NCBI GenBank assembly: GCA_905235705.1
Contig: CAJOML010000003.1
Location: forward strand, 1-42,657
Length of the DNA stretch: 42,657 nucleotides
Source of the DNA: an uncultured Bacilli bacterium
Lineage (GTDB): Bacteria > Bacillota_I > Bacilli_A > RFN20 > CAG-826
Direction: 5' to 3'
A program made the translations under genes and the position numbers. This document shows, piece after piece, positions 12,884-30,909 of the stretch. The notes beneath the pieces are model-generated. The model did not search any database and was not told the DNA's origin. It saw nothing but the letters and a program-made list of their open reading frames with translations. Position 1 is the first letter of the stretch; every line of letters begins with the position of its first letter.

Positions 12884-14062
12884 CTATTCACGTCCTTCTT
12901 CTTTATTTTCGCTTGGGACAGTTTCTTCAGGTTTGGTTTCGCCTTTTTCCATTTTGCCAACCCGAATTTCGAAAACAAGGGAAGTAATAAAGGAAAAGAT
13001 GAGGATCATATAGAAAGAAATGCCTCTAGATAATAATGAAACGGCTTGGGCGACGTTATAGTCTAAAGCCTGCCCAGAACCTACGGTGATTGAGCCTAAG
13101 ACCACAGCCCCGACAAGCTCTCCTGCCCCAACTGCCCCGGGAGTAGGGAACCAAGCGACGCAGACGGTGGCGAAGGCATTTCCCAATAAGCAGACCCAGA
13201 AATCTTCGATCCCGATTTGTAAAGACGGCATTGCCATCATCAGAAAGAAGGGTATCGCGTAGCAAAAGCAAAGGATGACCATGCGTAAAACAACGGCCAA
13301 GATAAACGTCTTCCAATGTTTGATGACTTCTTTGGCGGCGGATTGGGCCTTTTCCAAATAGGCATCAAGAGCAGGTTGGAATTTAGAAAGCTTCCTTAGG
13401 AATTTGGGTTTTGTGATGAGTCTAAATAAGGCTGAGATGATTCTTCTTGCCGTTTTGGAGAATCCTAAGACGGTGAAGAAAGCAAGGTTAATGGAATTCA
13501 GGATAATCCCGGCGACGGCAATCCATTGTAAGGAAGATAAATCCATATCAAGGCCTTGGATATTGGAAAGCCCTTGGACGTAACGAGGGTAATAAATCAA
13601 GGAGATAAAGCCGAATAAGACCGAGCATAAAACGATGTTGATGTAATTCATCAAAATGACGCCTGTGGCTTTTCCCCCGTCGTCTCCGCTTTGATGGAGG
13701 GCGAAGGCTTGGAAAGGCTGTCCCCCGACGGAAGAGGGGGTGACGCCATTATAAAAATGCTCGCAGTTGCCAATTAAATATAAGTCGCTGGTTTTTGATT
13801 TTAAGCCCGATTTGCGGCTAATTAGAAGCAAAGGAAGGGGATATAAGGCAAAGAAAGCGACGCCGCAAAGGATAGCCAAAATCAAATAAACGACATTGCC
13901 GCCTTGGACCATTTCATTAAAAGCCCCAGCCATGCGGGAGAGGTCGCCGAAGGAGAAGATCAAAAACGCCACCAAAGCGACTAAGCAAATGAAAATGAAA
14001 ACGTAAATCGCGTTTTTCCTGAATCTCTTTTTCCGTTGGGTGTCCGTCGGCTTTTCGCTCAT
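12884..14062 (-). CDS. lysylphosphatidylglycerol synthase TM-domain / UPF0104 flippase-like protein
   Basis: FYNGVTPSSVGGQPFQ, FPTPGAVGAGE and LLSRGISFY motifs. About 8-9 TM helices. Confidence 0.85.
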   Translation of the reverse strand: MSEKPTDTQRKKRFRKNAIYVFIFICLVALVAFLIFSFGDLSRMAGAFNEMVQGGNVVYLILAILCGVAFFALYPLPLLLISRKSGLKSKTSDLYLIGNCEHFYNGVTPSSVGGQPFQAFALHQSGDDGGKATGVILMNYINIVLCSVLFGFISLIYYPRYVQGLSNIQGLDMDLSSLQWIAVAGIILNSINLAFFTVLGFSKTARRIISALFRLITKPKFLRKLSKFQPALDAYLEKAQSAAKEVIKHWKTFILAVVLRMVILCFCYAIPFFLMMAMPSLQIGIEDFWVCLLGNAFATVCVAWFPTPGAVGAGELVGAVVLGSITVGSGQALDYNVAQAVSLLSRGISFYMILIFSFITSLVFEIRVGKMEKGETKPEETVPSENKEEGRE

Positions 14063-14877
14063 TGTTTCTCGAATTCCTCGATACGTTGACTATATTGCCC
14101 TAGCACATCGTCATATCGGTTTGATTTTTCCCATGAGGCGACTTTATCGACATGCCAAGGTTTCACCGAGACGGTGTGGAAGAAGGGAAAGAAACGGATG
14201 GTCTTGGAGAAATGACGGATGACCGTATCGTCATGCCCGCGGGTTTGCTCGTTATAAATTTGGGGCAGGAATTTTTTCTTTTTGACGCAGCGGTTGAGGG
14301 CGTCTTGATCGGCAAGGATCGGGTGTTTCTTTTTTAGGTAATCGCGACAAGAGGCGAATAGGCCCGTTTCCTTGCATCTAGCCATATTAAAGAGAAGGAC
14401 GCCTGAATTTTGATAAGTCGCCCCAATCCAGAAAGTCCCCAATTGGTCATAGCATCCGGCGAATTCATAATCTTCCATATCGGTATGATATAGAGGCGAG
14501 ATATTGCCTAAAATGAAGGTATCGGTATCCAGATAAAGGACTTTTTCGGGAAGGGGAAGGAAGTCGGCGAAAAGTCGGCATAAGGCATAAGGGGTATAGG
14601 CCGAACGTTTGAATTTCTTGTGCCAGGTCTGGGCTTGATATTCTTTGCCGACATCATAAACGATGATGGAGGATTCTTCGTTTTTTTGTTTTAGAAGGGA
14701 ATCGATATAGGCGATTTGTCCCTCGCTAGGCGGGATAAATGAGGCGCCAAGATGATGCAGATCCATCGAAAGGAAATGGATGGTGACGGCCTCATCGTTA
14801 TAGGCTAGGTAAGATAAAACGACGACCAATAGGCCTTTCCCTACATTTTTATTCCCGGCTAACATTAAATGGATCAC
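14059..14877 (-). CDS. glycosyltransferase family 8
   Basis: YALCRLF, LYLDTDT (DxD), YQNSGVLLFN, DQDALN and KPW motifs. ATGA overlap with the flippase gene. Confidence 0.88.
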   Translation of the reverse strand: MIHLMLAGNKNVGKGLLVVVLSYLAYNDEAVTIHFLSMDLHHLGASFIPPSEGQIAYIDSLLKQKNEESSIIVYDVGKEYQAQTWHKKFKRSAYTPYALCRLFADFLPLPEKVLYLDTDTFILGNISPLYHTDMEDYEFAGCYDQLGTFWIGATYQNSGVLLFNMARCKETGLFASCRDYLKKKHPILADQDALNRCVKKKKFLPQIYNEQTRGHDDTVIRHFSKTIRFFPFFHTVSVKPWHVDKVASWEKSNRYDDVLGQYSQRIEEFEKQ

Positions 14878-14954: not shown

Positions 14955-14990
14955 TAAAAAGGAAAACCCATCGCGAGGATGGGCTTTCCC
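14955..14990 (-). terminator. terminator of the galactan operon
   Basis: Minus strand reads GGAAAGCCCATC-ctcgc-GATGGGTTTTCC followed by TTTTT. Confidence 0.8.
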
Positions 14991-15007: not shown

Positions 15008-16123
15008 TTATTTACGTTTTCGGAAGGCGAATAAGCCAAGGGTTCCATCGCCATCATAATCGAATAAGCATTGGTTTGCCCATTCGTTGGTGGTCGGTTT
15101 TTCGGTCTCGTGGATATATTCTTCGCCTTCTTTGCTGGCCCAGCTAAGCCCTGGCAAAGGAAGCCATAAAGGCTCCCAGTAGATTATCGCATCGACGTGA
15201 TGCGATTTGGCTTTCTTTAGAAGGGTGGAAAGGAAGGATGCTTGCCCTTGTTGGGTCAAAGGATAAGGTTCACTTGCATCGCCTTTTTCAAATAAGGTCT
15301 TGTCGACGAGGGGTTTGAAGGGGATGGAGTCCTTATAAGCCGTCTCATAGGTGAAACCATAAGAGGTCTCGACAATCCAAACCGTCTTTCCATAACGCGT
15401 CCTAACGAAATCGACGTTAGAGAAGAATTCGTCAAAGCCGTGATGCCAATATGGGTAATAAGAGAGGCCGATGATATCAAAGGGAAGTTTCGCTTTGGTG
15501 ACTTCGTCGAAGAATTCGCCATAGACGTCCTTATCGTAGCTTCGTTCCAAGTGGATGACGATTTTCGCTTCAGGATAGATTTTCTTGGCCGATACGATTC
15601 CTTGCTTTAAAAGAGGGATAAAAGAATCATAGCCTTGACGGGGGCTTCCTTCTTCGCCGCTAAGTTTGCCATAGGGCCAAAGCATCCCGTTGGTAATCTC
15701 GTTGCCGATTTGGATGGCTTCGAGTTCAATCCCCTCTTCATGAACGGTTTTAAGGGAGGATTCAACGTAATTTTGCAAGATTTCAATGAGTTCTTGCAGG
15801 CTTTTCGGCTTCCATGATTTGGGGAGGAATTGCTTGCCTGGATCGCACCAAAAGTCAGAAAAATGGAAATCAAGGAGAATCTTATACCCCTTGTCCATAC
15901 CGACTTTGGCAAGGCGAAGGAAAGAATCCATATCGCTACTGCCGCCACCATAAGGGCGGCCCTCCTCATCATAAGGATTCACCCAAAGACGAAGGCGCAT
16001 GATGTCGCATCCGTTGACGTCATGAAGATAGCTTACAGGGTCAACGCGGCGACGGAAAACCGTATAGGAGGCGCCGGCTTCTAGACATTCTAGGTACGAT
16101 GAAATATCAATTCCTAATCTCAT
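15008..16123 (-). CDS. GH53 endo-beta-1,4-galactanase, no signal peptide (cytoplasmic)
   Basis: GIDISS, RLRLWVNP, LDFHFSDFWCDPGKQ, QIGNE (acid/base), SYYPYWH, IVETSY (nucleophile) and YWEP. Confidence 0.92.
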   Translation of the reverse strand: MRLGIDISSYLECLEAGASYTVFRRRVDPVSYLHDVNGCDIMRLRLWVNPYDEEGRPYGGGSSDMDSFLRLAKVGMDKGYKILLDFHFSDFWCDPGKQFLPKSWKPKSLQELIEILQNYVESSLKTVHEEGIELEAIQIGNEITNGMLWPYGKLSGEEGSPRQGYDSFIPLLKQGIVSAKKIYPEAKIVIHLERSYDKDVYGEFFDEVTKAKLPFDIIGLSYYPYWHHGFDEFFSNVDFVRTRYGKTVWIVETSYGFTYETAYKDSIPFKPLVDKTLFEKGDASEPYPLTQQGQASFLSTLLKKAKSHHVDAIIYWEPLWLPLPGLSWASKEGEEYIHETEKPTTNEWANQCLFDYDGDGTLGLFAFRKRK

Positions 16124-16380
16124 TGTTCGCCCGCCTTATAAGGATGGAAGGAAAGGGGCTCGTTATCTTTGCCAATACCATCGATTCTATCCCCATAATG
16201 GGCATATTTCTCTTTGCAGTTTTCGTTCCAATGGAGGACTTTTTCCTCATCGCCATGGAAACAGCAACGGATGCAATAATATTCTTTCTTCTCCTCGTCA
16301 TAGAACATGTCGATGTCGAGGTCGCGTTCAAAACAAACGGGGCAACGGAAATTTAGTTTGCCTTTTTTACTTTGAGCCAA
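16120..16380 (-). CDS. small Cys-rich protein (CxxC-x19-CxxC, zinc-ribbon-like)
   Basis: RCPVC...YYCIRCC. TTG start preceded by a strong SD (AGGGAGG). Overlaps both neighbours, with ATGA coupling to the GH53 gene. Confidence 0.75.
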   Translation of the reverse strand: MAQSKKGKLNFRCPVCFERDLDIDMFYDEEKKEYYCIRCCFHGDEEKVLHWNENCKEKYAHYGDRIDGIGKDNEPLSFHPYKAGEQ

Positions 16381-18173
16381 GAGCTAACCCTCCCTTCTTT
16401 GATATTCTTTTTTGCGGATAAACGGAACATCGGGGAGAAGGCGATGCCTTCTTCGATCCTTGCCCTAGTTCCGTCGCCACCGACTTCCAAACGGGCTTGG
16501 ATTTGGGGGACGTTGGCATAAGCGACCCCATCTTTCCCTTCGATGTGACGGTATTTATAAAGGTAATCGATTTGGCAAGGTTCGCTTCCCTCGATACCTA
16601 AGGTGATGCCAGTCATATCCAAGGAATATTCTTCCTTGCCATAGGTGGCAACGATATAGTCCTCGATTTCGACTTCAAGTTGATTGGGGTTATCGAGGAT
16701 GATACGTTCGAAGACGATTTCCCCTTTCCCTTTCTTGAAGATGAAACGGGATTGCATTTTGATGGTCCCATCGCTAAAAGCAACGTCGAATGGGTCGGTT
16801 GTAAGGACGGTATCTTCGCCTTCTTTGCAGTAGGTTGCCATCGTCCTTTCCAAAGCCAAATCGACGATTTCGTCTTTATATTTGACTTGGCAGGATTTTA
16901 AGGTCCCTTGTCCGGCGTAATGGGTGAAGTAGCCAGCCCTATAATTGGCTTGGATCATGTAAGGGTAAGACGCGTTATAGGCATTCCCGGTGCCAATGCC
17001 AACGGGGATCTCGAGCTTAGCGGCATAGTTGCGAAGATCGATCATGGCCCCGCCTTGGTTGAAGTCAAGACAGCAACGTAAATAGGGGTCATAATACCAG
17101 AAATACTGCTTATCCGAGCCATAAAGGATATCTTTCCATAAAGCCACTTCGGGGGTCTTATAGTCAGGATGTTCTTTCCGGTAATAGGCTGCATATTCTT
17201 CCATCGTCATATCGATGAGGCGGCCTTCCTTTTTGAGTTTGCCATAATAATCCAAGGCATCCTCATAGGACTTCTTCAATAAAGAATAAGGGGCTTCCCA
17301 ACGGCCGAGCTTATTTAACCAGCCCGGTCCGACGAACATCATATTATAGGCGTGTCCATCATTATATTTGGCTTGGTGGGCAAACATGTCGACGAGGTTA
17401 TAGAAATAGGGGATTTCGTTATTTTTATAAATCATCCCACGGAGGACATTCTGCGGATGGGTGCCAAAGTTGGAGCCGTTGCCGTCAAAGCAAGCCATCG
17501 GGTCACGGCTAAGGTGGGGGATGGCGACGATGCCGGAATCCTCTTCTTCGTTTTCCGCCGGCATCGCCGAGTTGATTTTAGAGGGGATCCAAGGGGCCCA
17601 AGGTCCGCCATCCATAAACGTATACCAGGAATTGTTGGTCGTGTGGTATGCCTTAACCCCTTCTTCGAAGCAGGTGGCAACCGCGCAAGTCACGGATGGA
17701 TAAGTGGCCTTGATGTAATTGATGGTAAAAGCGTCAAGATAGTAAGACCCGGTGGAAGCGGGATAGAACCCGAATTTCTCTTTGAAGAGGGCAAAGCAAT
17801 CATCGACGATGGCTTTTTTGTCTTCATCGGAGAACATCCAGATGCAGAAATCCTTTGTTTTGTATTTTTCTTCGAACTGAGGGCAAGGAAGGCCAAGCAA
17901 AGTCAACGCGATTTCATCGCCATAAAGTTCGTGGTGCTTTTTGGCAAGGGAGACAACCGTGTCGTTAAATAAGGAGGCGTAGGTCATCTCGATGGTGGTT
18001 TTTAAGCCACGGGAATGGGCGCATTCTTGCTGAAAGAGGAAGATGGAAAGGGATTCGTCTAGCAGCGCATCATCGCCTAGTTCGTCCTTTTTGCCGTTTT
18101 GCGTCAGCTTTTGCGCGTATTCAGGGGCCATTTCGGGCCGATGAATTAAGGTGAGGATAAAATCGTTTTTCAT
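16353..18173 (-). CDS. uncharacterised 606-aa soluble protein, putative carbohydrate-active enzyme
   Basis: Long ORF inside the operon, with no signal peptide or TM segment and rich in aromatic residues. The N-terminal pattern (FKEKFGFYPASTGSYYLD...GGPWAPWIPS) recalls deacetylase/GH57-clan barrels. The C-terminus is beta-strand rich. The CDS is secure and the function is inferred. Confidence 0.7.
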   Translation of the reverse strand: MKNDFILTLIHRPEMAPEYAQKLTQNGKKDELGDDALLDESLSIFLFQQECAHSRGLKTTIEMTYASLFNDTVVSLAKKHHELYGDEIALTLLGLPCPQFEEKYKTKDFCIWMFSDEDKKAIVDDCFALFKEKFGFYPASTGSYYLDAFTINYIKATYPSVTCAVATCFEEGVKAYHTTNNSWYTFMDGGPWAPWIPSKINSAMPAENEEEDSGIVAIPHLSRDPMACFDGNGSNFGTHPQNVLRGMIYKNNEIPYFYNLVDMFAHQAKYNDGHAYNMMFVGPGWLNKLGRWEAPYSLLKKSYEDALDYYGKLKKEGRLIDMTMEEYAAYYRKEHPDYKTPEVALWKDILYGSDKQYFWYYDPYLRCCLDFNQGGAMIDLRNYAAKLEIPVGIGTGNAYNASYPYMIQANYRAGYFTHYAGQGTLKSCQVKYKDEIVDLALERTMATYCKEGEDTVLTTDPFDVAFSDGTIKMQSRFIFKKGKGEIVFERIILDNPNQLEVEIEDYIVATYGKEEYSLDMTGITLGIEGSEPCQIDYLYKYRHIEGKDGVAYANVPQIQARLEVGGDGTRARIEEGIAFSPMFRLSAKKNIKEGRVSSWLKVKKAN

Positions 18174-18181
18174 AATGGTAA

Positions 18182-20815
18182 TTATTTATGGGTAAGGGCG
18201 AAGTCGGTCATTCTTCCCCAGGCGCCGCCTTTGGCATTGACTTCCAAGCCGACGGTGACTTTTTTGCCTTCGGGGATATTGATCCCTTCTAATAAGACGT
18301 CTTTGGTTGAGGCAACGTCAGAAGTCGTCCAGGGAAGGAGATAGGTATCGCTATTGAGGTCGAATGTCACTTTCTCGGCGCCTTCGACTTGGTAATAGAA
18401 GACGAATGATTCGTACTTATCCTTGGTGGCGGAAAGGAGATGGAAAGAGAAAGTGTATTCCCCGGCGGTGAGGCCTTTGATGTTTTGATGGACGTCGAAG
18501 GAGAAAGCGGATTCGGCCCACCATTTGAAGTAATTGCTGGTGCCTTCTTCTTTCTTCATGGATTCGTTATCGGCGACGGATAAGATATTGCTTTCATCAT
18601 GTCCGACAATCCAAGGAGAGTTAGGAGCGGCCCATAAGGTTTGGGCGGCGAGGTTACCGTCTTCAAGAGCGCCAGTGGCGACGTATTCCTCTTCGGGGAG
18701 GATCTCTTGATGCTTGGCAAAGGACCAAAGATCATTATGACCCCAAGCCGAACCGACGGCTTCAACCGTCATACCGACGGTGATATCGGTGCCGTTAGCA
18801 GGGATTTCGATATTTTGGATGAGGCCGTGTTGCATATATCTAGCTAAGGGGGCGCCCCAACCTTTGACGAGGACGGAAATCATATCGACGGTGACTCTTT
18901 CTTGGCCATCGATTTGATACCAGAGGTCGAACTTCTTATATAAGGAAGCGGTGTCACCGGCCATGACATAGGTGGAAAGGTCGTAGTTGCCCTCTTTTAC
19001 GTTGGTGATTTTTTGCTGCAAGGTGAAGCCGAAATCGGAGACGTTATACCAGTGGAAATATTTATTCCCATCGAGGTTACCGGCCGATTTTTCTTCGATC
19101 CAGACGACGTGTTTGCCGGTGACTTTGGAAAGTTCCCAAGGCTCTTTGACTTCGACTTCTTCTCCGCTTCCTTGGTTTTCGAAGGAATAATCGGCGATAT
19201 AGTTGGTCTCGGCTTTGACTTTGGCGACGACGTCGAAGGTGTTATCGACTTTGCCGTTAACTTCATAATCACCATCGCCATCTTCTAAGATTTTGGCGAT
19301 TTTGGCTTCGTCCCAAGTCACGGGGCGGGCACGTAAGGCGTCGAGGTTGGTCTTAACCTGCAAAGTGGTGGGCAAATTGACTTTGCCATCGAGGAGGTTG
19401 ACGTTGACTTCGATTTCGTCTGCGACTAACCCAGCGGCGACTTCTTCGACTTTGCGGTCGCCTTCTTGGATATGGCGATAGGCGCTTGCCCCAGGAAGGG
19501 CTTTGCCGGTGTAGGAGAACCAGCCTTGGTTGCACCAAGAAGGCAAGCAGGATTTATCGGTATAGGCTTCGAATTGCATAAGCGAGGTGGCGTCTTTGCC
19601 GTTGTCGTTATAATATTGGCCCGCTTTAGAAGCCCAGGTTGAACCAGCGACGGGAAGCCAAGCGGGTTCCCAATAGAAGATGCCGCGTCCGCCTTGATTT
19701 TTCACTTCGGAAAGCAAGGAGACGAGATCGGCTAATAAAGTGGCTTGGCCTTGGTCGCCGGTGATATAACCACCGGTGGATTCGAAGGTGGAGGAATGGT
19801 ATTGGTTTTGGCAATTTTCGTTAGGATCATCGGTCACGCCATAGGCGGTTTCGGCGATGATGCAGGGCTTGCCGTAATTATCCTGGATGGTGTTCATGAT
19901 ATTGAGGAGGTTTTCCTGGCTACCATGCCAATAGGGATAATAAGAAAGGCCGACCATGTCATAATCGATATCTTTGACGGCATCGAGGAAACGATAGACG
20001 CCTCTGGGGGATTTGATATTGGTCAAATGGACGAGGGCCTGGATGCTAGGGAAGACGGATTTGGCGCCTTTAACGCCAGCATCGACCATTTCGGCGATGG
20101 TTTCGCCTTCGGAGGTCGGGATTTCCGCGATGGCGGTATTGGTTTCGTTACCGATTTGGACCGAATCGACGGTGATACCGGCATCTTTGAAGGCTTGGAG
20201 GGATTCCTTGGTGAAATTGCCGATTAATTCGGGCAGTTCATTGGGCAAGGCATCGGCCCAGGCTTTGGGGAGCCATTGCTTGCTGGGGTCGGCCCAGGAG
20301 TCACTATAATGGAAGTCGATAAGGACTTTCATGCCGGCTGCTTTGGCGCGTCTAGCCAAAGCGATATCGGTGGCTAAATCGTTGGTGCCGCCGCCATAGG
20401 GAAGGGGCTTTCCGTTTTCATCTTTTAATTTCTCGGAATAGGGGTTATTCCAAAGACGGAAACGGGCATAGTTGACGCCATCGTTATAAAGAAGTTTGAA
20501 GATGTCTTGTTCTTTTCCTTCTTCGTTATAGTAAACGCCGCCATTGGCTTCGATTTCGGCGACGATGGAAAGGTCGGCGCCATAGGCGAAATCGTTGACG
20601 AGGGCATTCTTGGGGGTGTTGACCTTTAAGGAAGCGTAGTCATGAGGCTCATCGTTGGTTTTTCCTTCGGGCTTGGGTTGCCAAGATGTGGAGATCTCTC
20701 TTTCGCTTGAGGAGGTCTCGCTTTGCTTGGTGGATTCGCTGCTATTTCCTCCCCCTCCGCAAGAAGCGAGGGTCAACGCGGAGAGAAGCAGGAATAAGGG
20801 GCTTAGTTTTTTCAT
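18182..20815 (-). CDS. surface lipoprotein GH53 endo-beta-1,4-galactanase with an Ig-like domain and two CBM61-like modules
   Basis: Lipobox LTLASC plus Ser-rich linker. YGADLS, RFRLWNNP, DFHYSDSWADPSKQ, QIGNE, IAETAY and FYWEP. LP...VTWD...Y.V.G Big-like segment. Two C-terminal repeats ending in AWG. Confidence 0.92.
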   Translation of the reverse strand: MKKLSPLFLLLSALTLASCGGGGNSSESTKQSETSSSEREISTSWQPKPEGKTNDEPHDYASLKVNTPKNALVNDFAYGADLSIVAEIEANGGVYYNEEGKEQDIFKLLYNDGVNYARFRLWNNPYSEKLKDENGKPLPYGGGTNDLATDIALARRAKAAGMKVLIDFHYSDSWADPSKQWLPKAWADALPNELPELIGNFTKESLQAFKDAGITVDSVQIGNETNTAIAEIPTSEGETIAEMVDAGVKGAKSVFPSIQALVHLTNIKSPRGVYRFLDAVKDIDYDMVGLSYYPYWHGSQENLLNIMNTIQDNYGKPCIIAETAYGVTDDPNENCQNQYHSSTFESTGGYITGDQGQATLLADLVSLLSEVKNQGGRGIFYWEPAWLPVAGSTWASKAGQYYNDNGKDATSLMQFEAYTDKSCLPSWCNQGWFSYTGKALPGASAYRHIQEGDRKVEEVAAGLVADEIEVNVNLLDGKVNLPTTLQVKTNLDALRARPVTWDEAKIAKILEDGDGDYEVNGKVDNTFDVVAKVKAETNYIADYSFENQGSGEEVEVKEPWELSKVTGKHVVWIEEKSAGNLDGNKYFHWYNVSDFGFTLQQKITNVKEGNYDLSTYVMAGDTASLYKKFDLWYQIDGQERVTVDMISVLVKGWGAPLARYMQHGLIQNIEIPANGTDITVGMTVEAVGSAWGHNDLWSFAKHQEILPEEEYVATGALEDGNLAAQTLWAAPNSPWIVGHDESNILSVADNESMKKEEGTSNYFKWWAESAFSFDVHQNIKGLTAGEYTFSFHLLSATKDKYESFVFYYQVEGAEKVTFDLNSDTYLLPWTTSDVASTKDVLLEGINIPEGKKVTVGLEVNAKGGAWGRMTDFALTHK

Positions 20816-21630
20816 TTGTCTTTCGTCCTCCTGTTTTCTTGACGATAGGCTTGGGGTGATAAGCCATAATAGGCATGGAAGGCTTTGGAGAAGTGGAGGG
20901 GGTTAGGGTAACCAACCGATATGGCCACTTCGGTGATGGAACGCGAGGTGAAGCTCAATAAACGAGCCGCCTCTTCCATCCGCAGCCTCGTCAATAAGGT
21001 TTTGGGGTTTTCCTCCCCTTCCCTTTTAAATAAATTGGCGAGGTAGTTGGGGGAGACGCCGATACTTCTAGCGACGTCTAAGATGGAGATTTTGAATTGG
21101 TAATTGTTGGCAATGAAGGCTTTGGCGGCCTGGATATGCCCTTTTTCTTTGAATTGTTTCGGGGTTTCTTTGCCCTTGACCATCTTATCTAATAAAGCGT
21201 AGGCTTCGGCAAGGCAATCTAGCCCGAACTTGCCATTTAGGAAATAGGATTCGTAAATGGCTTCGAAGTGGGAACGTCCTTCTTTTTTCTGATCGTGGAG
21301 GACGGGGACTTCTTGGCTAAATCCAGCCAAATTCAGAAGCGCGTTGATACGACTTCCCCCAAGTCCCACCCAAAGGTAGGACCAGGGGTTATCTTTTTCG
21401 GCTTGGTAAGAGGCTGAATCGCCAGCCCGAATCAAGAAGCAATCACCGGCTTTTAGGCGATAACTCACCCCGTTACGGGTAAATATCCCGCGCCCTGCAT
21501 AGACATAATGCAAGGTGGCATAGGGTTTCGGGGTGAAGACGATGTTTTTATCCGCGATGCAGGTTTCTCTTCCCGCCTCGGCGACAGAGACGTCGAGAAA
21601 GGAAGAGGAGTCGACTAGGCTTAAATCCAT
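20812..21630 (-). CDS. AraC family transcriptional regulator
   Basis: Cupin ligand domain (LHYVYAGRG, NPWSYLWVG) and double HTH (VSPNYLANLFK, SITEVAISVGYPNPLHFSKAF). ATG 21630 has SD AAAGGA just after the permease stop and is preferred over GTG 21666. Confidence 0.92.
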   Translation of the reverse strand: MDLSLVDSSSFLDVSVAEAGRETCIADKNIVFTPKPYATLHYVYAGRGIFTRNGVSYRLKAGDCFLIRAGDSASYQAEKDNPWSYLWVGLGGSRINALLNLAGFSQEVPVLHDQKKEGRSHFEAIYESYFLNGKFGLDCLAEAYALLDKMVKGKETPKQFKEKGHIQAAKAFIANNYQFKISILDVARSIGVSPNYLANLFKREGEENPKTLLTRLRMEEAARLLSFTSRSITEVAISVGYPNPLHFSKAFHAYYGLSPQAYRQENRRTKDK

Positions 21631-21637
21631 GTTGGGT

Positions 21638-22867
21638 TTATCCTTTGACAGCACCACCGGTAACACCGCCTACATAGTATTTCTGGACGACCATAAATAA
21701 GGTCGACAGCGGGATGGAGACTAACACCGCCCCGGCGGCGAAGACGCCGAACCAGTCCGCGATATTGCCTTCACCTAACATCGTGAATAAGCCGATCGCG
21801 ACGGTGTAATTATTGGCTTGGGCTTGCGGACCAAGGATGATCTTGGCGAAGACGAAGTCAACCCAAGGTGACATGAATGAAGTGATGATCGTATAAACGA
21901 TGATCGGCTTAGAAAGAGGAACCAAGATCTGGAAGAAGACACGGGCTGCGGAAGCGCCGTCGATCTTGGCCGCTTCGTCGATATCCATCGGGATGGTGTC
22001 GAAGAAGCCCTTTGCCACGAGATAGCCAAGTCCAGCACCGGCGGAATAAGCGATGATAAGACGGACTAGACCGGCATCGATATGGAAGACGTATTCGAAT
22101 AAGTAATAGGATACGAGCATCGTAAGCATCCCTGGGAAAAGGGAGACGATCATCGAGAGGTTCATCAAGCCTTTTCTCTTCTTGAAACGGAAACGAGAGA
22201 AGGCGAAGGCGGTTGCTAGGACAAACAAGGTGGAGACGATGGTCGAGCAAACCGAGACCAATAAGGTATTGGCCAGCCAAGTGGGGAATTGGTTGACCCC
22301 ACCGGTGCGGGTGAAGAGATCGATATAATGACGGAAGGTGCCGGCTTTGGGGAAGAAGCTCGACATCGAAGGACCATGGAGCCCATCGGTAAAGCTAACC
22401 AGAATCAGCCAAACAACCGGGATAAGCCAGAAGAGGACAAGGGCGGCGATAAAGACGTTATGGAAGACGGTAAGGGAGACGTCCCCGACTTTATGACGGA
22501 CCATGCGTCCATGGTTATGACGTTGCGTTTTGGCTAGGCTAACCGAGTTTTCGTCGGATTCGTAGATGAGGAGTTTTTCCTCGCCGCGGATATAGGTTTC
22601 AAGATGGATATCATATGTTCCATCACGACCGATGATGACTTTACGACCTTCTTCATCGGGCATGGCTTCGGCATCGTTTGCCCCAAGGGCGCGATATCCG
22701 ACGGTACGGTCGCCTTGGGTAAGATAGAGGATATCGCCTTTTTTCAGTTCGACGAAGAAAGCGATGACTTCGTCTTTGGCGGAAGCCCCGCCGGCAAGGG
22801 TGATGCGTTTTAAGAGTTTGCCATCACGGATAATATGGGCTTTCCAAGCGCCAGATTTATATTCCAT
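21638..22867 (-). CDS. sugar ABC transporter permease (MalG/GanQ-like) with an extra N-terminal soluble domain
   Basis: EAA loop FFDTIPMDIDEAAKIDGAS and C-terminal QKYYVGGVTGGAVKG. About 125 soluble residues precede TM1. Confidence 0.92.
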   Translation of the reverse strand: MEYKSGAWKAHIIRDGKLLKRITLAGGASAKDEVIAFFVELKKGDILYLTQGDRTVGYRALGANDAEAMPDEEGRKVIIGRDGTYDIHLETYIRGEEKLLIYESDENSVSLAKTQRHNHGRMVRHKVGDVSLTVFHNVFIAALVLFWLIPVVWLILVSFTDGLHGPSMSSFFPKAGTFRHYIDLFTRTGGVNQFPTWLANTLLVSVCSTIVSTLFVLATAFAFSRFRFKKRKGLMNLSMIVSLFPGMLTMLVSYYLFEYVFHIDAGLVRLIIAYSAGAGLGYLVAKGFFDTIPMDIDEAAKIDGASAARVFFQILVPLSKPIIVYTIITSFMSPWVDFVFAKIILGPQAQANNYTVAIGLFTMLGEGNIADWFGVFAAGAVLVSIPLSTLFMVVQKYYVGGVTGGAVKG

Positions 22868-24459
22868 TATTGCATCCTCCTTTCGCGGTTACCTTTGGTC
22901 GACTGAGTGAAGGTGACCAAGGTGAAGATCGTCGAGATGGTGAACATCATGATACCGACGATGGAGGCCATGTAGTATTCGTGCTTGGCTCCGCCGGCGA
23001 TCATGTTGTAAAGCCAGGTGATGAGGAGGTCGCTTTCCTTGGCCGAGACGTTGATGTAGTCCTGGTTTTGGGTGACCCCGTCACTGGTAAGAAGATAGAT
23101 AACGTTGAAGTTATTGATGTTGGAAACGAAGCTGGAAATCAAGTAAGGAGTGCAAACCTGAAGGATATAAGGCATCGTAATGGAACGGAACATCCTGGCT
23201 TTGGAAGCCCCGTCAATTCGCGCGGATTCGTAGAGATCTGCGGGGATATTCATCAAAATACCCGAGATCATTAACATCAAATAGGGGAAGCCGACCCAGC
23301 AGTTGACGATGATGACGGTGACCTTCGTCCAAGTGGGGTCGCTAAGGAAGGGGAAGTAGGGGGTGGAGATAAATCCGGAAGCCTGGGCGGCTTGGGTCCA
23401 ACCCCATTGCGACAATAAGTTATTGACGATGCCATTATCGGCTAAGAAGTAACGGACTAACATCAAGGACACGAATTGAGGAACGGCAATGGTAATGACA
23501 AAGCCGGTTCTCCAAACCTTGGGGAATTTGGTCCGTTTGGAATTAAGGAGCAAGGCAAGTAATAAACCACCGAAGAAGCAGGTGAAGGTGGCAAAGAAGG
23601 CCCAGACCAATGTCCAGATCAACTGTTGACCAAAGACGACGAGGAAGGATGAGGAGTTAAGGTTAAACAAAGAGCTCCATAAATTGAATCCTTCCCATTT
23701 GAAGGCATCGATGGTGACGGTCGCCCCACCGGCGTCTTTGGCGCCATAGTTAGTGAAGGCGATGAGGATCATCATGATGGTCGGGACGACGGTGAAGACC
23801 AAGATGCCAAGGATTGGGAGGGCCAAAACGGTCATGTAGAAATGATCGTTGATTAATGAGCCCATGTCGTCTTTGGCGGAGTTGATATGCTTGCCTTCGG
23901 CGATGTTTTCTTCGTTACGATAGACGCTCTTGATGGAGGCGATATGGATAAAGAAGAAGGCGACGATGACAAGGATTGCCATGACCGAGTTCAAGACGAC
24001 TAAGAATGCGTTGTCGCCTTTGACACAGTCGAGTTCACCGGTCTCGAAATTGATTTCACAGCCGCCGTTTTCAAGCGTTCCGGCAGGGGTGAGATTATTT
24101 AAACCGAGTTTGGGGAAGTTGGGGACGCCCCAGAAGATGATGGCCAAAATGGCGAGAACCTCAATGAGGAGGAAGAAGACGCCACGGAGCCATTGAACGA
24201 CGTGGACGCGACGCTTGATGGCGACCGAATCGGGGTGGCCTTGTTCGTCGGTGATGATCTCGTGTTCAATGACTTCCTGATATTGGTGGTGGACAAAGAA
24301 CCCAAAGCCCGAAATGAGGAAGGATAGGCGCGTGGCCCAATCGCCATAGCGCATCGCATCACCCAAAGGGGCAAAGTAGCCTTTGAAAGAGCGTCCGATT
24401 TTCTTCCAAAAGGAATACTTCTCTTTCGGTCCCTTTTCTTTTTTCTTAGGCTTAGACAT
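22867..24459 (-). CDS. sugar ABC transporter permease (MalF/GanP-like)
   Basis: NIPADLYESARIDGAS, NINNFNVIYLLT and DLLITWLY motifs. Confidence 0.92.
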   Translation of the reverse strand: MSKPKKKEKGPKEKYSFWKKIGRSFKGYFAPLGDAMRYGDWATRLSFLISGFGFFVHHQYQEVIEHEIITDEQGHPDSVAIKRRVHVVQWLRGVFFLLIEVLAILAIIFWGVPNFPKLGLNNLTPAGTLENGGCEINFETGELDCVKGDNAFLVVLNSVMAILVIVAFFFIHIASIKSVYRNEENIAEGKHINSAKDDMGSLINDHFYMTVLALPILGILVFTVVPTIMMILIAFTNYGAKDAGGATVTIDAFKWEGFNLWSSLFNLNSSSFLVVFGQQLIWTLVWAFFATFTCFFGGLLLALLLNSKRTKFPKVWRTGFVITIAVPQFVSLMLVRYFLADNGIVNNLLSQWGWTQAAQASGFISTPYFPFLSDPTWTKVTVIIVNCWVGFPYLMLMISGILMNIPADLYESARIDGASKARMFRSITMPYILQVCTPYLISSFVSNINNFNVIYLLTSDGVTQNQDYINVSAKESDLLITWLYNMIAGGAKHEYYMASIVGIMMFTISTIFTLVTFTQSTKGNRERRMQ

Positions 24460-24486: not shown

Positions 24487-25854
24487 TTAATTGCCAGAGA
24501 GCGCGTTAACGCATGCGTCAAGGGCGGCTTGGACGGCGGCTTTGTCGATGACGATGTCGGCAGTTCCTTCGCCGGAGGTGATGAAGGAAGCGCTGGCGCC
24601 GGCACTGCCTGCGCAAAGCTGGTCGGATAAACCGTTGGAAGGATTCCAGAAGGCTTCGTTGACCTTTTCGGTGAAGGCGCCTTTGGCCCATTGCTCGTCT
24701 AAGGCTTTGACGGCCGGATTTGTGGTGGTGTCAACCTTGGAAGCGGCTTCCGTGTTGGTGGGCGCTTCGGAAAGCGAATTGAAGCGGAGGATTTGGTTAT
24801 CGTAGTTGGTGAGGAATTCGGCGAATTTGGCGGAATCGATGAGGGTTTTGGCACGCTTTGCGTTAACGATACCGATCTTGAAGCCTTTGACCGATTGCAT
24901 GGAGAAGTCTTTGCTAGCTTCGTCAACGTGGTAGCTAGGCAAGACGGTCGCGGCGGTGTTATCACCCCAGGCGGCTTTGATACGTTTGTAGTTCCAAGTG
25001 CCGTTAATGGTGGCGATGATTTGGTTAGGCTGGGCATCATCGATTTGGGTCATCAAAAGGGCTTGGGTTTGGCTGGTCCATTGGTTCTTATATTCGCCAT
25101 GGGCCAATTTGACTAAGGAAGAAGCGACGTCGACGCCTTTGACGCCATTGACTTCTTTATTCCAGTCGCATTGGACAGTGGTGGAACCCGCTTCGCCAAG
25201 GACACTGAAACCAGCGCCACGGAACCAGCCGTCTAAATACCAGCCAGAGTGGTGGGGGAAGCCGAAGCGGAAGTTCTTCCCATATTGTTCGGAAGCGCGC
25301 TTAACGGCGGCAAGGAGGGAAGAGAAACTCGTGGTGTCTTCTTTGTTGATGTATTTGGAGTTGTAATAGAGGATATAGCCGTTGGAAGCGGAGACGGGGA
25401 AGCCATAGGTCTTGCCTTCACTGGTGACCATATCGATGGATTCTTTGGAGTTCCTGGTCTTGATGGTATCGGAGAGTCCTTCGATATAACGATCAAGGGG
25501 TTCCAAGCTTTGGATGAGGTTGGATTTGATCATGGCCGGGATTTGGTCATCGGCGGCGATGGCGAAATCGGCAGCTTGAGAAGGGTCAGCCGCCCAGTCG
25601 CCCGATACTGAAGATTCGGAGACGGCTTTGACGGTAAAGTTATATTCTTTCTCGGGATGGGCTTTCTTGAAGGCTTCGGCGACTTCATTGACGTAAGCTA
25701 ATGAGTCTTCGGTTTCCCCAGCCCACACGGTGATGTTGGTGACGCCGCCGGCACTAGAGGCAGCTGAACTGCTAGCTTGGGACGATTCACCTCCCCCTCC
25801 GCAGCTAACAAGGGCGATGAGGGAAAGGGCTGACATTAAATATTTGGCTTTCAT
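24487..25854 (-). CDS. oligosaccharide ABC transporter substrate-binding lipoprotein (MalE/GanS-like)
   Basis: Lipobox LIALVSC, ITVWAG, YGFPVS...ILYYN and INGTWN. SD AAGGAG. First gene of the operon. Confidence 0.9.
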   Translation of the reverse strand: MKAKYLMSALSLIALVSCGGGGESSQASSSAASSAGGVTNITVWAGETEDSLAYVNEVAEAFKKAHPEKEYNFTVKAVSESSVSGDWAADPSQAADFAIAADDQIPAMIKSNLIQSLEPLDRYIEGLSDTIKTRNSKESIDMVTSEGKTYGFPVSASNGYILYYNSKYINKEDTTSFSSLLAAVKRASEQYGKNFRFGFPHHSGWYLDGWFRGAGFSVLGEAGSTTVQCDWNKEVNGVKGVDVASSLVKLAHGEYKNQWTSQTQALLMTQIDDAQPNQIIATINGTWNYKRIKAAWGDNTAATVLPSYHVDEASKDFSMQSVKGFKIGIVNAKRAKTLIDSAKFAEFLTNYDNQILRFNSLSEAPTNTEAASKVDTTTNPAVKALDEQWAKGAFTEKVNEAFWNPSNGLSDQLCAGSAGASASFITSGEGTADIVIDKAAVQAALDACVNALSGN

Positions 25855-29683: not shown

Positions 29684-30909
29684 GCAAGGCAAAAAGAGAG
29701 AAGAAAGCGTTATTCAAACGTTTAGTCGATGAGGGCTATACCGTTTTAGTGCCGGATATGTGCCCCATCCAGTTTCATTTGATTTCACGTGTCGCGGCTT
29801 TAGATGGACTGAAGTTTGTCGTGATTTCCCCGACCGACCAAAAAGCCAAAGACGATGGACTTTCCGTCATCCATAACGATGCTTGCTACCCCGTTGTCAT
29901 TGTCGCCGGGGCATTTATGAACGCGTTACGTTCAGGTAAATATGACGTGAATAAGACAGCTGTCTTAATCACCCAAACCGGCGGGGGATGCCGCGCCTCT
30001 AATTATTTATCTTTGTTTAAAAAGGCGTTCGCCAAAGAATTCCCGAAAGTTCCCGTTCTGTCTTTGAATTTTTCAGGTTTATCTGAAGAATATTCGCTGC
30101 CGTTATCGTTGCCTAGATTGATTCAACTTTTCTATGGAATCCTATATGGGGACATGCTGATGAACCTATATTTGCAGGCACGTCCTTATTATCCTGAAGA
30201 CGTGGTGGAGAAAGCGTTAAACGATACCTTGGCCAAACTTGATGCCCAAATTGGGACAAGGCGGTTCCTCCAAAAGAAAAAGAATTATGGCCTTATCCTT
30301 CATCATTTTAAGAATCTTCAGCCCCCGGCTAAGCGTAAACCCCTTGTCGGCATCGTCGGGGAAATCTATGTGAAGTATTCGCCTTTTGCCAATAACCATC
30401 TTTCCGATTTCCTCCATAAGGAAGGCTGCGAGGTCGTTTATCCGTCTTTGATGGAGTTCCTTCAGTATTTCGTTTATAACTGCATCAATGACCACGATCT
30501 TTATAAGATGAATCGCCGCACCTATCTCCTTTGGAAGATCGCTTACCGGTATTCGCTCCGGATTTGCAAAGAAGCGGCGAAAGCATTAGAAGGAACTTCC
30601 TTCCGTCCTTTCGAGGATTTCCAAGCCCTTGTCAAAGCCGGCCAAAAAGTCATCTCGACCGGCGTGAAGATGGGAGAAGGCTGGCTTATCCCGGCCGAGA
30701 TGGTCGAATATACCTCTGGCGCGGTCAAAAATATCGTGGTCGTGCAACCGTTTGGCTGCCTTCCTAACCATATCGTCGGCAAAGGAATGATTCGCCCGGT
30801 CAAGCAGCTTAACCCTGACGCGAATATCGTCGCTATCGATTTCGATGCCTCATCGACATCGGTTAACCAAGAAAACAGACTTAAACTGATGCTTGCAAAT
30901 TTGAATTAA
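29680..30909 (+). CDS. plsR: 2-hydroxyacyl-CoA dehydratase-like reductase subunit, PlsR-like
   Basis: HNDACYP, QTGGGCRASNY, VGIVGEIYVK, GEGWLI and QPFGCLPNH motifs. ATGA-coupled to the upstream gene. Confidence 0.72.
   Translation: MSKAKREKKALFKRLVDEGYTVLVPDMCPIQFHLISRVAALDGLKFVVISPTDQKAKDDGLSVIHNDACYPVVIVAGAFMNALRSGKYDVNKTAVLITQTGGGCRASNYLSLFKKAFAKEFPKVPVLSLNFSGLSEEYSLPLSLPRLIQLFYGILYGDMLMNLYLQARPYYPEDVVEKALNDTLAKLDAQIGTRRFLQKKKNYGLILHHFKNLQPPAKRKPLVGIVGEIYVKYSPFANNHLSDFLHKEGCEVVYPSLMEFLQYFVYNCINDHDLYKMNRRTYLLWKIAYRYSLRICKEAAKALEGTSFRPFEDFQALVKAGQKVISTGVKMGEGWLIPAEMVEYTSGAVKNIVVVQPFGCLPNHIVGKGMIRPVKQLNPDANIVAIDFDASSTSVNQENRLKLMLANLN

What the first reader, a model, noticed from the sequence alone, without database searches (positions are those of the whole stretch)
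16353..18173. Uncharacterised 606-aa protein in a galactan operon that lacks a beta-galactosidase: candidate new glycosidase or phosphorylase family
Seen: the operon is tightly coupled (SBP, MalF, MalG, AraC, surface GH53, this ORF, Cys-rich ORF, cytoplasmic GH53, terminator) and has no GH2, GH35 or GH42 gene. Established: Bacillus-type gan operons pair the ABC importer and GH53 with a cytoplasmic GH42 that breaks down imported galacto-oligosaccharides. Inference: this soluble, aromatic-rich protein fills that role or removes decorations such as acetyl or arabinosyl groups. Its segment F..KFG.YP.S.G.YY.D...GGPW.PW.PS....PA....D.G.V reminds me of GH57/CE4-clan barrel proteins of the DUF3863 type. 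That resemblance is from memory and not from a search.
Basis: partly seen in the sequence, partly recalled or inferred. Interest (0 to 1): 0.85.

Follow-up and report, generated by a model that had tools for sequence, protein, structure and literature searches.

The report
Unnamed two-part enzyme in galactan operons
A 606-residue protein of no described family and a small zinc-ribbon protein that always follows it sit beside galactan-cutting enzymes in many gut and rumen bacteria, and are probably an undescribed sugar-cleaving enzyme that finishes the breakdown of imported plant galactan.

Summary
The ORF is real: 16353-18173, minus strand, 606 aa, cytoplasmic. It lies in an eight-gene operon (SBP, two permeases, AraC, lipoprotein GH53, this ORF, an 86-aa four-Cys ORF, cytoplasmic GH53, strong terminator). 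It matches no Pfam, NCBIfam or PDB entry at significance, although more than 2,400 homologues exist, all named hypothetical.

New here: the 86-aa zinc-ribbon ORF overlaps its 3' end in 80 of 80 related loci. It also follows distant relatives that have no GH53, and it is fused to the C-terminus in two distant relatives. The two are therefore one enzyme. GH53 is present in 76 of 80 loci. In 61 genomes of the window's own family, the protein occurs in 11 of 12 GH53-bearing genomes and in 0 of 49 others. GH42 occurs in none of those 12. One 96%-complete genome has galactokinase but no GH1, GH2, GH35 or GH42.

Against a simple GH42 replacement: 16 of 80 loci also carry GH42.

Fold evidence is weak and mixed. 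DUF3863 matches are sub-threshold, profile comparison with GH57 is negative, and the N-terminal third resembles the GH42 barrel.

Best reading: a new two-subunit glycosidase acting on imported galacto-oligosaccharides. A phosphorylase is not excluded.

The parts
24487..25854 (-). Solute-binding lipoprotein of the ABC sugar importer, first gene of the operon
   Evidence: Pfam SBP_bac_8, E 1e-23. Homologue present in 57 of 80 related loci.
22867..24459 (-). MalF-type ABC permease, 530 aa
   Evidence: Pfam BPD_transp_1, E 1.9e-18. Homologue present in 62 of 80 loci.
21638..22867 (-). MalG-type ABC permease, 409 aa, with a long N-terminal extension
   Evidence: Pfam BPD_transp_1 at residues 217-398, E 2e-15. 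Homologue present in 64 of 80 loci.
20812..21666 (-). AraC-family regulator inside the operon
   Evidence: Pfam HTH_18, HTH_AraC and AraC_binding. Homologue present in only 7 of 80 loci; a LacI-family gene cluster is present in 29 of 80.
18182..20815 (-). Surface lipoprotein GH53 endo-beta-1,4-galactanase, 877 aa, with a Big_4 domain and a long C-terminal region
   Evidence: Pfam Glyco_hydro_53, E 2.7e-94, and Big_4. The N-terminus reads ...LTLASCGGGG; reading this as a lipoprotein signal is my own, from the sequence.
16353..18173 (-). The finding: a 606-aa cytoplasmic protein of an undescribed family, the candidate catalytic subunit. Acidic residues E87 and E171 are invariant, and D224 is invariant in 39 sequences spanning 25-91% identity. 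The most conserved blocks are CFEEG (168-172), GGPWxPWxPS (189-198) and PHLxRD (219-224).
   Evidence: for sequence and conservation. for context.
16120..16380 (-). 86-aa zinc-ribbon-like protein, with C13, C16, C36 and C39 invariant. It overlaps the 3' end of the 606-aa gene by 28 nt and is the candidate small subunit.
   Evidence: A homologue overlaps the end of the large gene in 80 of 80 loci. It also follows distant relatives and is fused to the C-terminus of P0192 and P0194. The family has 2525 members, none named.
15008..16123 (-). Cytoplasmic GH53 endo-beta-1,4-galactanase, 371 aa, no signal peptide. Its ATG overlaps the stop of the zinc-ribbon ORF.
   Evidence: Pfam Glyco_hydro_53, E 7.9e-81. 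A GH53 of this type starts about 230 nt after the large gene's end in most loci.
14960..14990 (-). Intrinsic-terminator-like hairpin (13-bp stem followed by a T run) that closes the operon

Best explanation
The 606-aa protein and the overlapping 86-aa zinc-ribbon protein are the large and small subunits of one cytoplasmic carbohydrate-active enzyme of an undescribed family.

In this subfamily the enzyme belongs to the beta-1,4-galactan pathway. The surface GH53 cuts galactan outside the cell. The ABC importer brings galacto-oligosaccharides in. The cytoplasmic GH53 shortens them. The new enzyme then most likely acts as an exo-glycosidase on the short products (galactobiose, galactotriose), releasing galactose for galactokinase and the Leloir pathway. 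That is the job GH42 GanA does in Bacillus-type gan operons.

Shown: the two genes form a fixed pair, and in some lineages a fusion. The pair is nearly inseparable from GH53. Relatives sit in other glycan-utilisation loci. At least one nearly complete genome has the pair, GH53 and galactokinase but no classical beta-galactosidase family.

Inferred: that it is an enzyme, that it is a hydrolase, which bond it cuts, and that E87, E171 and D224 are catalytic. From my own knowledge, not from a call: GH53 enzymes act poorly on galactobiose.
For: 1. The pairing with the zinc-ribbon ORF is fixed.
- A homologue overlaps the 3' end of the large gene in 80 of 80 loci from genome contigs.
- It also follows the 30%-identical relative in L085, and relatives in 10 of 13 metagenome loci that have no GH53.
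- Both P0192 and P0194 (25-28% identical, 676 and 671 aa) carry it fused at the C-terminus. For P0192, hhalign gives 83.6%, E 8e-6. For P0194 the fused motif was read from the sequence.
- The family sizes match: 2446 large-subunit and 2525 small-subunit proteins.

2. The link to galactan is strong.
- GH53 is present in 76 of 80 loci.
- Of the four loci without GH53, two contigs end within 360 nt after the large gene. One has GH42 in GH53's place and then ends. One (L063) has 2.7 kb downstream without GH53.
- In 61 genomes of the window's own family, the protein is in 11 and GH53 is in 12, with an overlap of 11.
- Lachnospiraceae loci add GalK (11 loci), GalT (11) and GalE (10).

3. A beta-galactosidase is missing where the pair is present.
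- GH42 is in 0 of the 12 GH53-bearing genomes of that family. It is in 1 of 61 overall, and that genome has neither GH53 nor the protein.
- GH42 and GH35 are in 0 of 5 genomes that carry the protein.
- G272 (96% complete, 5 contigs) has the pair, four GH53 genes and galactokinase 15 kb upstream, but no GH1, GH2, GH35 or GH42.

4. The family behaves like a CAZyme family. Distant members lie next to GH26+CBM11 and GH5, next to GH16, and next to apiosidase-like, GH28-like, GH63-like and YdjC genes, together with SBPs and permeases.

5. There are hints of a barrel fold.
- hhalign of the family profile against a GH42 alignment gives 77%, E 2e-5, over the first 143 columns. Two further profiles that exclude the window's subfamily, one of which (A5) is a subset of the other (A4), give 75.9% and 25%.
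- The true clan pair GH53-GH42 scores only 13% in the same test, and the reversed query scores 0.2%.
- Sub-threshold DUF3863 and 3lm3 matches fall on the GGPW..PS..PA block.

6. The acidic residues E87 and E171 are invariant down to 25% identity.
Against: - GH42 sits in the same locus in 16 of 80 cases, so the protein is not merely a GH42 substitute there.
- Four of five genomes checked that carry the protein, and the window's own genome, have GH2-family genes elsewhere that could be beta-galactosidases.
- The fold signals disagree with one another: DUF3863 is sub-threshold, GH57 appears by language-model features but not by hhalign, and GH42 matches only over the N-terminal third.
- In the GH42 alignment, the GH42 acid/base Asn-Glu (placement recalled) lines up with Asp147-Ala148 of this protein.
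- D224 is replaced by N in P0192.
- Two distant members (L085, L097) lie between secA and cotJ-like genes with no sugar genes nearby.
- Several invariant arginines (R223, R245, R366, R381) would suit phosphate binding as well as sugar binding.
- Related genomes are not independent samples, so the co-occurrence counts overstate the statistical weight.
Confidence: 0.45

Rival explanations
1. The pair is a glycoside phosphorylase. It splits imported beta-1,4-galacto-oligosaccharides with phosphate to give galactose 1-phosphate, which enters the Leloir pathway at GalT and saves ATP, as anaerobes do for cellodextrins and mannobiose.
For: - The location is cytoplasmic and the hosts are strict anaerobes of gut and rumen (record titles).
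- GalT is in 11 of 80 loci.
- Four invariant arginines and two nearly invariant histidines could bind phosphate.
- Coexistence with GH42 in 16 of 80 loci is easier to explain if the two enzymes do different chemistry.
Against: - GalK accompanies GalT in the same loci (11 loci) and is present in G272 and G000. This would be expected in either case.
- There is no similarity to any known phosphorylase family in Pfam or PDB searches.
- No direct evidence for phosphate use exists.
Confidence: 0.17
2. The pair is a transglycosylase (disproportionating enzyme), the galactan counterpart of MalQ in the maltodextrin system. It would rebuild short galacto-oligosaccharides into longer chains plus galactose, and the adjacent cytoplasmic GH53 would cut those chains again.
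For: - The conserved core is large subunit, zinc ribbon, cytoplasmic endo-GH53, usually in that order. A cytoplasmic endo-enzyme makes most sense if longer chains exist inside the cell.
- The importer is MalEFG-like.
- Language-model features place the protein nearest to GH57 4-alpha-glucanotransferase-type clusters at 0.86-0.87, which is a lead only.
Against: - hhalign against GH57 is negative, at 0.4-0.9%.
- The idea rests on analogy alone.
- Imported oligosaccharides may already be long enough to need an endo-enzyme.
Confidence: 0.1
3. The pair removes a decoration or an odd linkage from imported type I arabinogalactan fragments (arabinosyl caps, branches or esters) so that GH53 and a beta-galactosidase can finish the job.
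For: - It coexists with GH42 in 16 of 80 loci.
- Distant relatives lie beside an esterase-like GDSL gene and a YdjC gene in L102.
- If DUF3863 belongs to the hydrolase/deacetylase barrel clan, which is recalled and not tested, deacetylase chemistry would be possible.
Against: - No arabinose-catabolic or acetyl-related gene recurs among the neighbour clusters that were annotated. The ten scanned were ABC ATPase, LacI, GH13, GH42, pullulanase-like, GalK, GalT, GalE, GGDEF-PBP and MCP.
- G272 would still lack any enzyme for galactobiose.
Confidence: 0.1
4. The pair is not an enzyme. It could be a sugar-sensing, scaffolding or chaperone protein for the cytoplasmic GH53 or the transporter.
For: - No catalytic residues have been demonstrated.
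- The GH42 acid/base position is not conserved in the hhalign alignment.
- Zinc ribbons often mediate protein contacts (general knowledge).
Against: - Conservation is very high: 60-90% identity across Bacilli, Lachnospiraceae and Oscillospiraceae.
- Acidic and aromatic residues are invariant down to 25% identity.
- The pair occurs with quite different glycosidases and also without GH53, so it is not a GH53-specific helper.
Confidence: 0.06

Closest known systems
GH42 beta-galactosidase GanA of Bacillus-type gan operons
   Same: - Same pathway position: a cytoplasmic enzyme encoded with a MalEFG-like importer and an extracellular GH53 (recalled for Bacillus subtilis ganSPQAB; the window's operon is).
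- The N-terminal 143 profile columns align to GH42 residues 41-189 at 77% probability, E 2e-5.
   Different: - No Pfam GH42 hit.
- Only the first third aligns.
- The GH42 Asn-Glu acid/base lines up with Asp-Ala (the placement of the GH42 motif is recalled).
- It has an obligate zinc-ribbon partner.
- It coexists with true GH42 in 16 of 80 loci.
DUF3863 (Pfam PF12979; PDB 3lm3, 'uncharacterized protein')
   Same: - The block GGPWxPWyPSkxNxxxPA matches 3lm3 residues 184-216. A second, collinear stretch (EF..w....W....R) matches 315-370.
- Two distant relatives hit PF12979 at 12-17 bits.
- An Atlas cluster of 619 aa with TM 0.94 to relative P0351 is labelled PF12979.
   Different: - All sequence matches fall below Pfam's 27-bit cut-off.
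- 0 of 28 close relatives hit it.
- DUF3863 itself has no known function. No paper in the library holds 'DUF3863', 'PF12979' or 'DUF3864'; the 36 papers returned for these terms plus '3LM3' matched only the string '3lm3', and the 20 listed were unrelated by title.
- DUF3863 proper was not found in 401 + 301 + 5 genomes searched.
GH57 (alpha-amylase / 4-alpha-glucanotransferase family)
   Same: - Similar length. A barrel-plus-C-terminal-domain layout is suggested by language-model features, with the nearest named clusters at 0.86-0.87.
   Different: - hhalign against an alignment of 22 GH57 proteins (those of 480-800 aa among 30 loci fetched from 201 genomes) gives 0.4-0.9%.
- No Pfam hit.
- GH57 acts on alpha-glucans, whereas the context here is beta-galactan.
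Heteromeric LacLM beta-galactosidase (GH2) of lactobacilli
   Same: Both would be two-subunit glycosidases encoded by overlapping genes (LacLM is recalled, not tested here).
   Different: There is no sequence relationship. The small partner here is a 70-86-aa zinc ribbon, not part of a split catalytic chain.

Membership tests
GH42 (Pfam PF02449) | Significant match to the GH42 catalytic-domain model | tested here: not met
   No PF02449 hit for the protein or for 28 close and 28 distant relatives, even at E up to 10. hhalign similarity covers the N-terminal third only.
GH42 (Pfam PF02449) | Acid/base Glu of the Asn-Glu motif at the end of strand 4 (placement of the motif recalled) | tested here: not met
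   In the hhalign alignment the template's conserved ...DNE... lines up with Y-L-D147-A148 of the protein.
DUF3863 (Pfam PF12979) | Score at or above the curated 27-bit cut-off | tested here: not met
   The window protein has no hit. The best relatives score 16.6 and 12.3 bits.
DUF3863 (Pfam PF12979) | Same fold as PDB 3lm3 | not testable with these tools
The only indirect evidence is the Atlas label on one structurally similar cluster.
GH57 (Pfam PF03065) | Match to the GH57 model or profile | tested here: not met
   No Pfam hit. hhalign gives 0.4-0.9%. Atlas feature scores of 0.86-0.87 are below the tool's 0.9 bar.
CE4 / hydrolase-deacetylase barrel clan | Asp-His-His metal triad and seven-stranded barrel (recalled) | not tested
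   No structure model was available and no CE4 alignment was built.
Bacillus-type gan (galactan utilisation) operon | ABC importer with SBP and two MalFG-type permeases | tested here: met
Bacillus-type gan (galactan utilisation) operon | Secreted or surface GH53 endo-galactanase | tested here: met
   877-aa GH53. The lipoprotein-type N-terminus was read from the sequence.
Bacillus-type gan (galactan utilisation) operon | Cytoplasmic GH42 beta-galactosidase | tested here: not met
   None in the operon and none in the genome, which is 76.6% complete.
Zinc ribbon (for the 86-aa ORF) | Two CxxC knuckles that are conserved | tested here: met
   C13, C16, C36 and C39 are invariant in 30 sequences. 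No Pfam zinc-ribbon model matches significantly. Metal binding itself was not tested.

The most novel reading that the evidence does not exclude
The large protein and its zinc-ribbon partner found a new carbohydrate-active enzyme family with a heteromeric (sometimes fused) architecture seen in no described glycosidase. The galactan subfamily would be a beta-1,4-galacto-oligosaccharide phosphorylase or disproportionating enzyme. I recall no enzyme described with either activity on beta-1,4-galactan; no search was run for these activities. Sister subfamilies would do the same chemistry on mannan- or glucan-derived and other oligosaccharides.
Probability: 0.25. Interest if true: 0.88.

Novelty: new variant of a known kind. 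Interest (0 to 1): 0.72.

Why it matters
Beta-1,4-galactan side chains of pectin are a major dietary fibre. How gut and rumen Bacillota finish their breakdown is known only through the Bacillus and Bifidobacterium GH42 route.

Here a gene pair with no name, no Pfam model and no structure is the most constant companion of GH53. It is found in at least 586 genome stretches, spanning Lachnospiraceae, Oscillospiraceae, Erysipelotrichaceae and small-genome Bacilli. In one bacterial family it stands where GH42 would be expected.

If it is an enzyme, it would define a new CAZy family with several substrate-specific subfamilies. It would also correct the metabolic reconstructions that now call these organisms unable to use galacto-oligosaccharides.

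The question is directly testable, because cultured Waltera species carry the locus (L017, L023, L024).

Tried and rejected
- DUF3863 sequences for a profile-profile test: PF12979 was sought in the own genome, in 401 genomes of the own phylum, in 5 genomes holding related loci and in 301 genomes of the Waltera phylum. Nothing rang, including in the control genomes, so the DUF3863 comparison could not go beyond HMMER.
- GH57 kinship was tested by hhalign and rejected at this sensitivity. The true clan pair GH53-GH42 scored only 13% in the same set-up, so a negative result at clan level is weak.
- The 66% hhalign hit between the GH13 and SBP alignments covers 25 N-terminal columns. I read this as shared signal peptides. 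It shows that short hits in this test are unreliable.
- Longer fused forms: one protein only, 1334 aa with RNA-polymerase beta domains on a 4-kb contig. I read it as a chimeric assembly.
- Expression: an RNA run (X1, sheep gut metatranscriptome) held 7% of the sampled words. Laid on the operon, it gave one 213-nt contig with 2 differences on 17708-17920 and one 168-nt contig on the cytoplasmic GH53. These are contigs in an RNA library and do not prove transcription. Parts of the operon without cover mean nothing. The joint at 22012/23281 comes from a 6.5-kb contig that fits only about 25 letters on each side, so it belongs to another organism.
- The promoter scan found no more sites than shuffled sequence (10 found, 12.6 expected). 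No promoter is claimed.
- Literature: six full-text searches found no paper on this family. For PMC5320581 I saw only the passages returned by 'find'. They describe a three-GH53 arabinogalactan locus in Roseburia faecis and R. hominis without mentioning such a protein. Its supplementary tables, which list the locus genes, were not seen. For all other papers I saw only search listings. CAZy and dbCAN could not be consulted, so a very recent CAZy family cannot be excluded.
- The first Atlas call failed because the exact sequence is not held.
Full report
**What is there**

The finding's coordinates hold a real gene on the minus strand, 16353-18173, encoding 606 aa. The plus strand of the same span is closed by stops. 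I read the N-terminus as having no signal peptide or membrane segment.

The gene is the sixth of eight tightly packed minus-strand genes:
- SBP 24487-25854
- MalF-type permease 22867-24459
- MalG-type permease 21638-22867
- AraC regulator 20812-21666
- 877-aa lipoprotein GH53 with Big_4 18182-20815
- the 606-aa gene
- an 86-aa ORF 16120-16380
- a 371-aa GH53 without signal peptide 15008-16123

All eight were scanned against Pfam. The 86-aa ORF starts at a TTG, 7 nt after GGGAGGG, inside the last 28 nt of the 606-aa gene. Its TGA shares bases with the ATG of the last GH53. A 13-bp-stem hairpin with a T run follows at 14990-14960.

**It belongs to no described family, yet it is common**

Pfam and NCBIfam give no significant hit for the protein. 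Pfam also gives none for 28 close relatives, even at E up to 10. Sequence and profile searches of PDB give nothing significant.

The family is nonetheless large:
- The word-indexed search found 2446 proteins at E ≤ 0.001 among the 8000 candidates scored. The 120 best are 62-100% identical over the full length, and every name given is 'hypothetical protein'.
- The exhaustive search of 50%-identity representatives found 595 proteins at E ≤ 0.001, including full-length relatives down to 25% identity.
Of these, 586 were confirmed, and the best 80 were kept. They come from Lachnospiraceae (including cultured Waltera intestinalis, W. acetigignens and W. hominis), Oscillospiraceae, Erysipelotrichaceae, Christensenellaceae and Bacilli MAGs from gut and rumen.

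**The 86-aa ORF is an obligate partner**

- tblastn with the window's proteins against the 80 loci found a homologue of the 86-aa ORF overlapping the 3' end of the large gene in 80 of 80 loci. In L036 only 25 aa are seen before the contig ends.
- Its N-terminal 60 residues are highly conserved. C13, C16, C36 and C39 are invariant in 30 sequences: a CPxC...CxRC zinc-ribbon pattern. Pfam does not recognise it.
- The same small ORF follows a 30%-identical relative in L085. It also follows relatives in 10 of 13 metagenome loci. Of the other three, L101 is cut at the contig end, L100 matches over only part of its length, and L098 shows none.
- In two distant relatives, P0192 (676 aa) and P0194 (671 aa), the zinc ribbon is part of the same chain, at the C-terminus. 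For P0192, hhalign of the small-protein profile gives 83.6%, E 8e-6, at residues 624-666. For P0194 the motif was read directly from the sequence.
- The small-protein family has 2525 members at E ≤ 0.001, about the same size as the large one, again all unnamed.

Conserved overlap, co-occurrence across the whole superfamily, and fusion in the gene order large-then-small together argue that the two form one protein complex. Physical binding could not be tested.

**The link to galactan**

- GH53 is present in 76 of 80 loci, usually starting about 230 nt after the end of the large gene, that is, right after the small ORF.
- Of the four loci without GH53, L034 and L036 end within 360 nt of the large gene. 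L067 has GH42 directly after the small ORF and then ends. L063 has 2.7 kb downstream without GH53.
- MalG, MalF and SBP homologues are in 64, 62 and 57 loci.
- Clustering all 1269 locus ORFs and scanning representatives of ten recurrent neighbour clusters gave these further neighbours: an ABC ATPase (38 loci), LacI (29), a 540-aa GH13 (24), GH42 (16), a pullulanase-like GH13 (12), GalK (11), GalT (11) and GalE (10).
- Typical Lachnospiraceae loci read: GalT-GalK-GH42 divergent from LacI-SBP-MalF-MalG-large-small-GH53, then GalE-GalK-GH53(surface)-GalT.
- In a sample of 61 genomes of the window's own GTDB family, the protein is in 11 and GH53 is in 12, and the 11 are a subset of the 12. None of the 49 genomes without GH53 has it. 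These genomes are related and not independent, so I give the counts without a test.

**Is a beta-galactosidase missing?**

- The window's genome (76.6% complete) has no GH42, GH35 or GH1. It does have two GH2-family genes on other contigs, and a galactokinase.
- In the 61-genome sample, GH42 occurs once, in a genome with neither GH53 nor the protein.
- Among five good-quality carriers, GH42 and GH35 are absent from all five and GH2 is present in four.
- The fifth carrier, G272 (0.8 Mb, 5 contigs, 96% complete), has the pair, four GH53 genes and a galactokinase 15 kb upstream on the same contig. It has no GH1, GH2, GH35 or GH42. In that organism, free galactose from galactan must come from GH53 enzymes or from the new pair.
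- Against a simple 'GH42 replacement': 16 of 80 loci have both.

**The wider family looks like a CAZyme family**

The distant relatives are very diverse, 25-50% identical to one another, whereas the galactan subfamily is 60-90% identical across classes.

Thirteen metagenome loci of distant relatives have no GH53. Where flanks are long, the neighbours are other glycan genes:
- GH26+CBM11, GH5+CBM4_9, an FGGY kinase, RpiR, an apiosidase-like protein and an ABC importer (L091, L092)
- a GH16 and a CBM-bearing surface protein (L096)
- an apiosidase-like protein, GDSL esterase, YdjC, GH28-like and GH63-like proteins, an SBP and a two-component AraC system (L102)

Two loci (L085, L097) instead lie between secA and cotJ-like genes.

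In 301 genomes of the Waltera phylum, only 4 have a family member, so the family is sparse and accessory.

**Fold and active site remain unresolved**

Indirect signals are:
- (a) Profile searches of PDB with two different family profiles both rank 3lm3 first, at E 0.017 and 0.012.
- (b) Two of 28 distant relatives hit Pfam DUF3863 at 16.6 and 12.3 bits, against a cut-off of 27.
- (c) The ESM Atlas holds a confident model of relative P0351 (pTM 0.88). All of its 30 nearest models fall in four listed sets, three without a family name. One 619-aa cluster at TM 0.94 carries the PF12979 label.
- (d) Language-model features put GH57 clusters nearest among named ones, at 0.86-0.87, which the tool rates as a lead only.
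- (e) hhalign of the family profile against alignments I built from locus ORFs gives 0.4-0.9% for GH57. For GH42 it gives 77% (E 2e-5) over the first 143 columns against GH42 residues 41-189. Two profiles that omit the galactan subfamily give 75.9% and 25%; one of them (A5) is a subset of the other (A4), so they are not independent of each other. Controls: the true clan pair GH53-GH42 scores 13%, the reversed query scores 0.2%, and unrelated families score 1.4% or less.

In that alignment the GH42 Asn-Glu (placement recalled) faces Asp147-Ala148, so the catalytic apparatus is not that of GH42.

I conclude only that the N-terminal half is probably a glycosidase-like beta/alpha barrel.

Residues invariant in 39 sequences down to 25% identity are E87, E171, G172, G189, W192, P197, R223, D224, R245, Y256, W285, R366, D379, R381, G392 and P404. 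In a second alignment that adds P0192 and P0194, D224 drops to nearly invariant because P0192 has Asn there. E87 and E171 are my candidates for the catalytic carboxylates. This is inference.

**Reading**

The most economical explanation is a two-subunit cytoplasmic glycosidase of a new family. In this subfamily it completes the breakdown of imported beta-1,4-galacto-oligosaccharides together with the cytoplasmic GH53. Phosphorylase, transglycosylase and debranching roles remain open, and coexistence with GH42 in a fifth of loci keeps them alive.

No paper in the searchable library mentions DUF3863, PF12979 or a protein of this kind in GH53 loci. The only relevant passages seen (PMC5320581) list a three-GH53 locus in Roseburia without it. 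Supplements were closed, and CAZy could not be consulted.

**Verdict**

The function is still inferred.

Noticed in passing
window 3847-11052 (-): A 2401-aa non-ribosomal peptide synthetase-like gene lies just downstream of the region in a roughly 1.3-Mb genome. It has two Condensation, two AMP-binding and two PP-binding stretches and a terminal NAD_binding_4 reductase domain.
   Followed up: partly
window 26753-29683 (+) and 29680-30909 (+): A 976-aa protein has two BcrAD_BadFG ATPase stretches plus DUF2229 (CoA-enzyme activase type). It is followed by an overlapping 409-aa ORF with no Pfam hit.
   Followed up: partly
L085 10004-11889 and L097 8001-9886: Distant members of the pair (about 30% identity, with the zinc-ribbon ORF) sit between secA and cotJ-like spore-coat genes (Mn_catalase type), with no sugar genes nearby. 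This does not fit the glycan-locus pattern of the other relatives.
   Followed up: partly
protein P0256 (1161 aa): An N-terminal region 30% identical to residues 108-386 of the finding is fused to a long, very hydrophobic C-terminal region that looks polytopic. The whole protein has no Pfam hit. The CFEEG block is not kept.
   Followed up: no
L067 10001-14155: In this Lachnospiraceae locus a GH42 gene directly follows the zinc-ribbon ORF, in the position where GH53 sits elsewhere.
   Followed up: no
window 21638-22867 (-) and 22867-24459 (-): Both permeases are unusually long (409 and 530 aa). The MalG-type one has about 200 residues before its permease domain (BPD_transp_1 at 217-398).
   Followed up: no
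G113:C3:76764-77855: This is the only genome of the 61 sampled that has a GH53 (426-aa frame) without the new pair.
   Followed up: no
protein P0356 (1334 aa): This is the only 'longer' relative. It is 70% identical over 48% of the query and joined to RNA polymerase beta-subunit domains on a 4-kb contig, so it is probably an assembly chimera.
   Followed up: no
window 12884-14877 (-): Directly downstream of the operon's terminator lie a GT8 glycosyltransferase (14059-14877) and an LPG_synthase_TM-type membrane protein (12884-14062), which overlap by 4 nt.
   Followed up: partly
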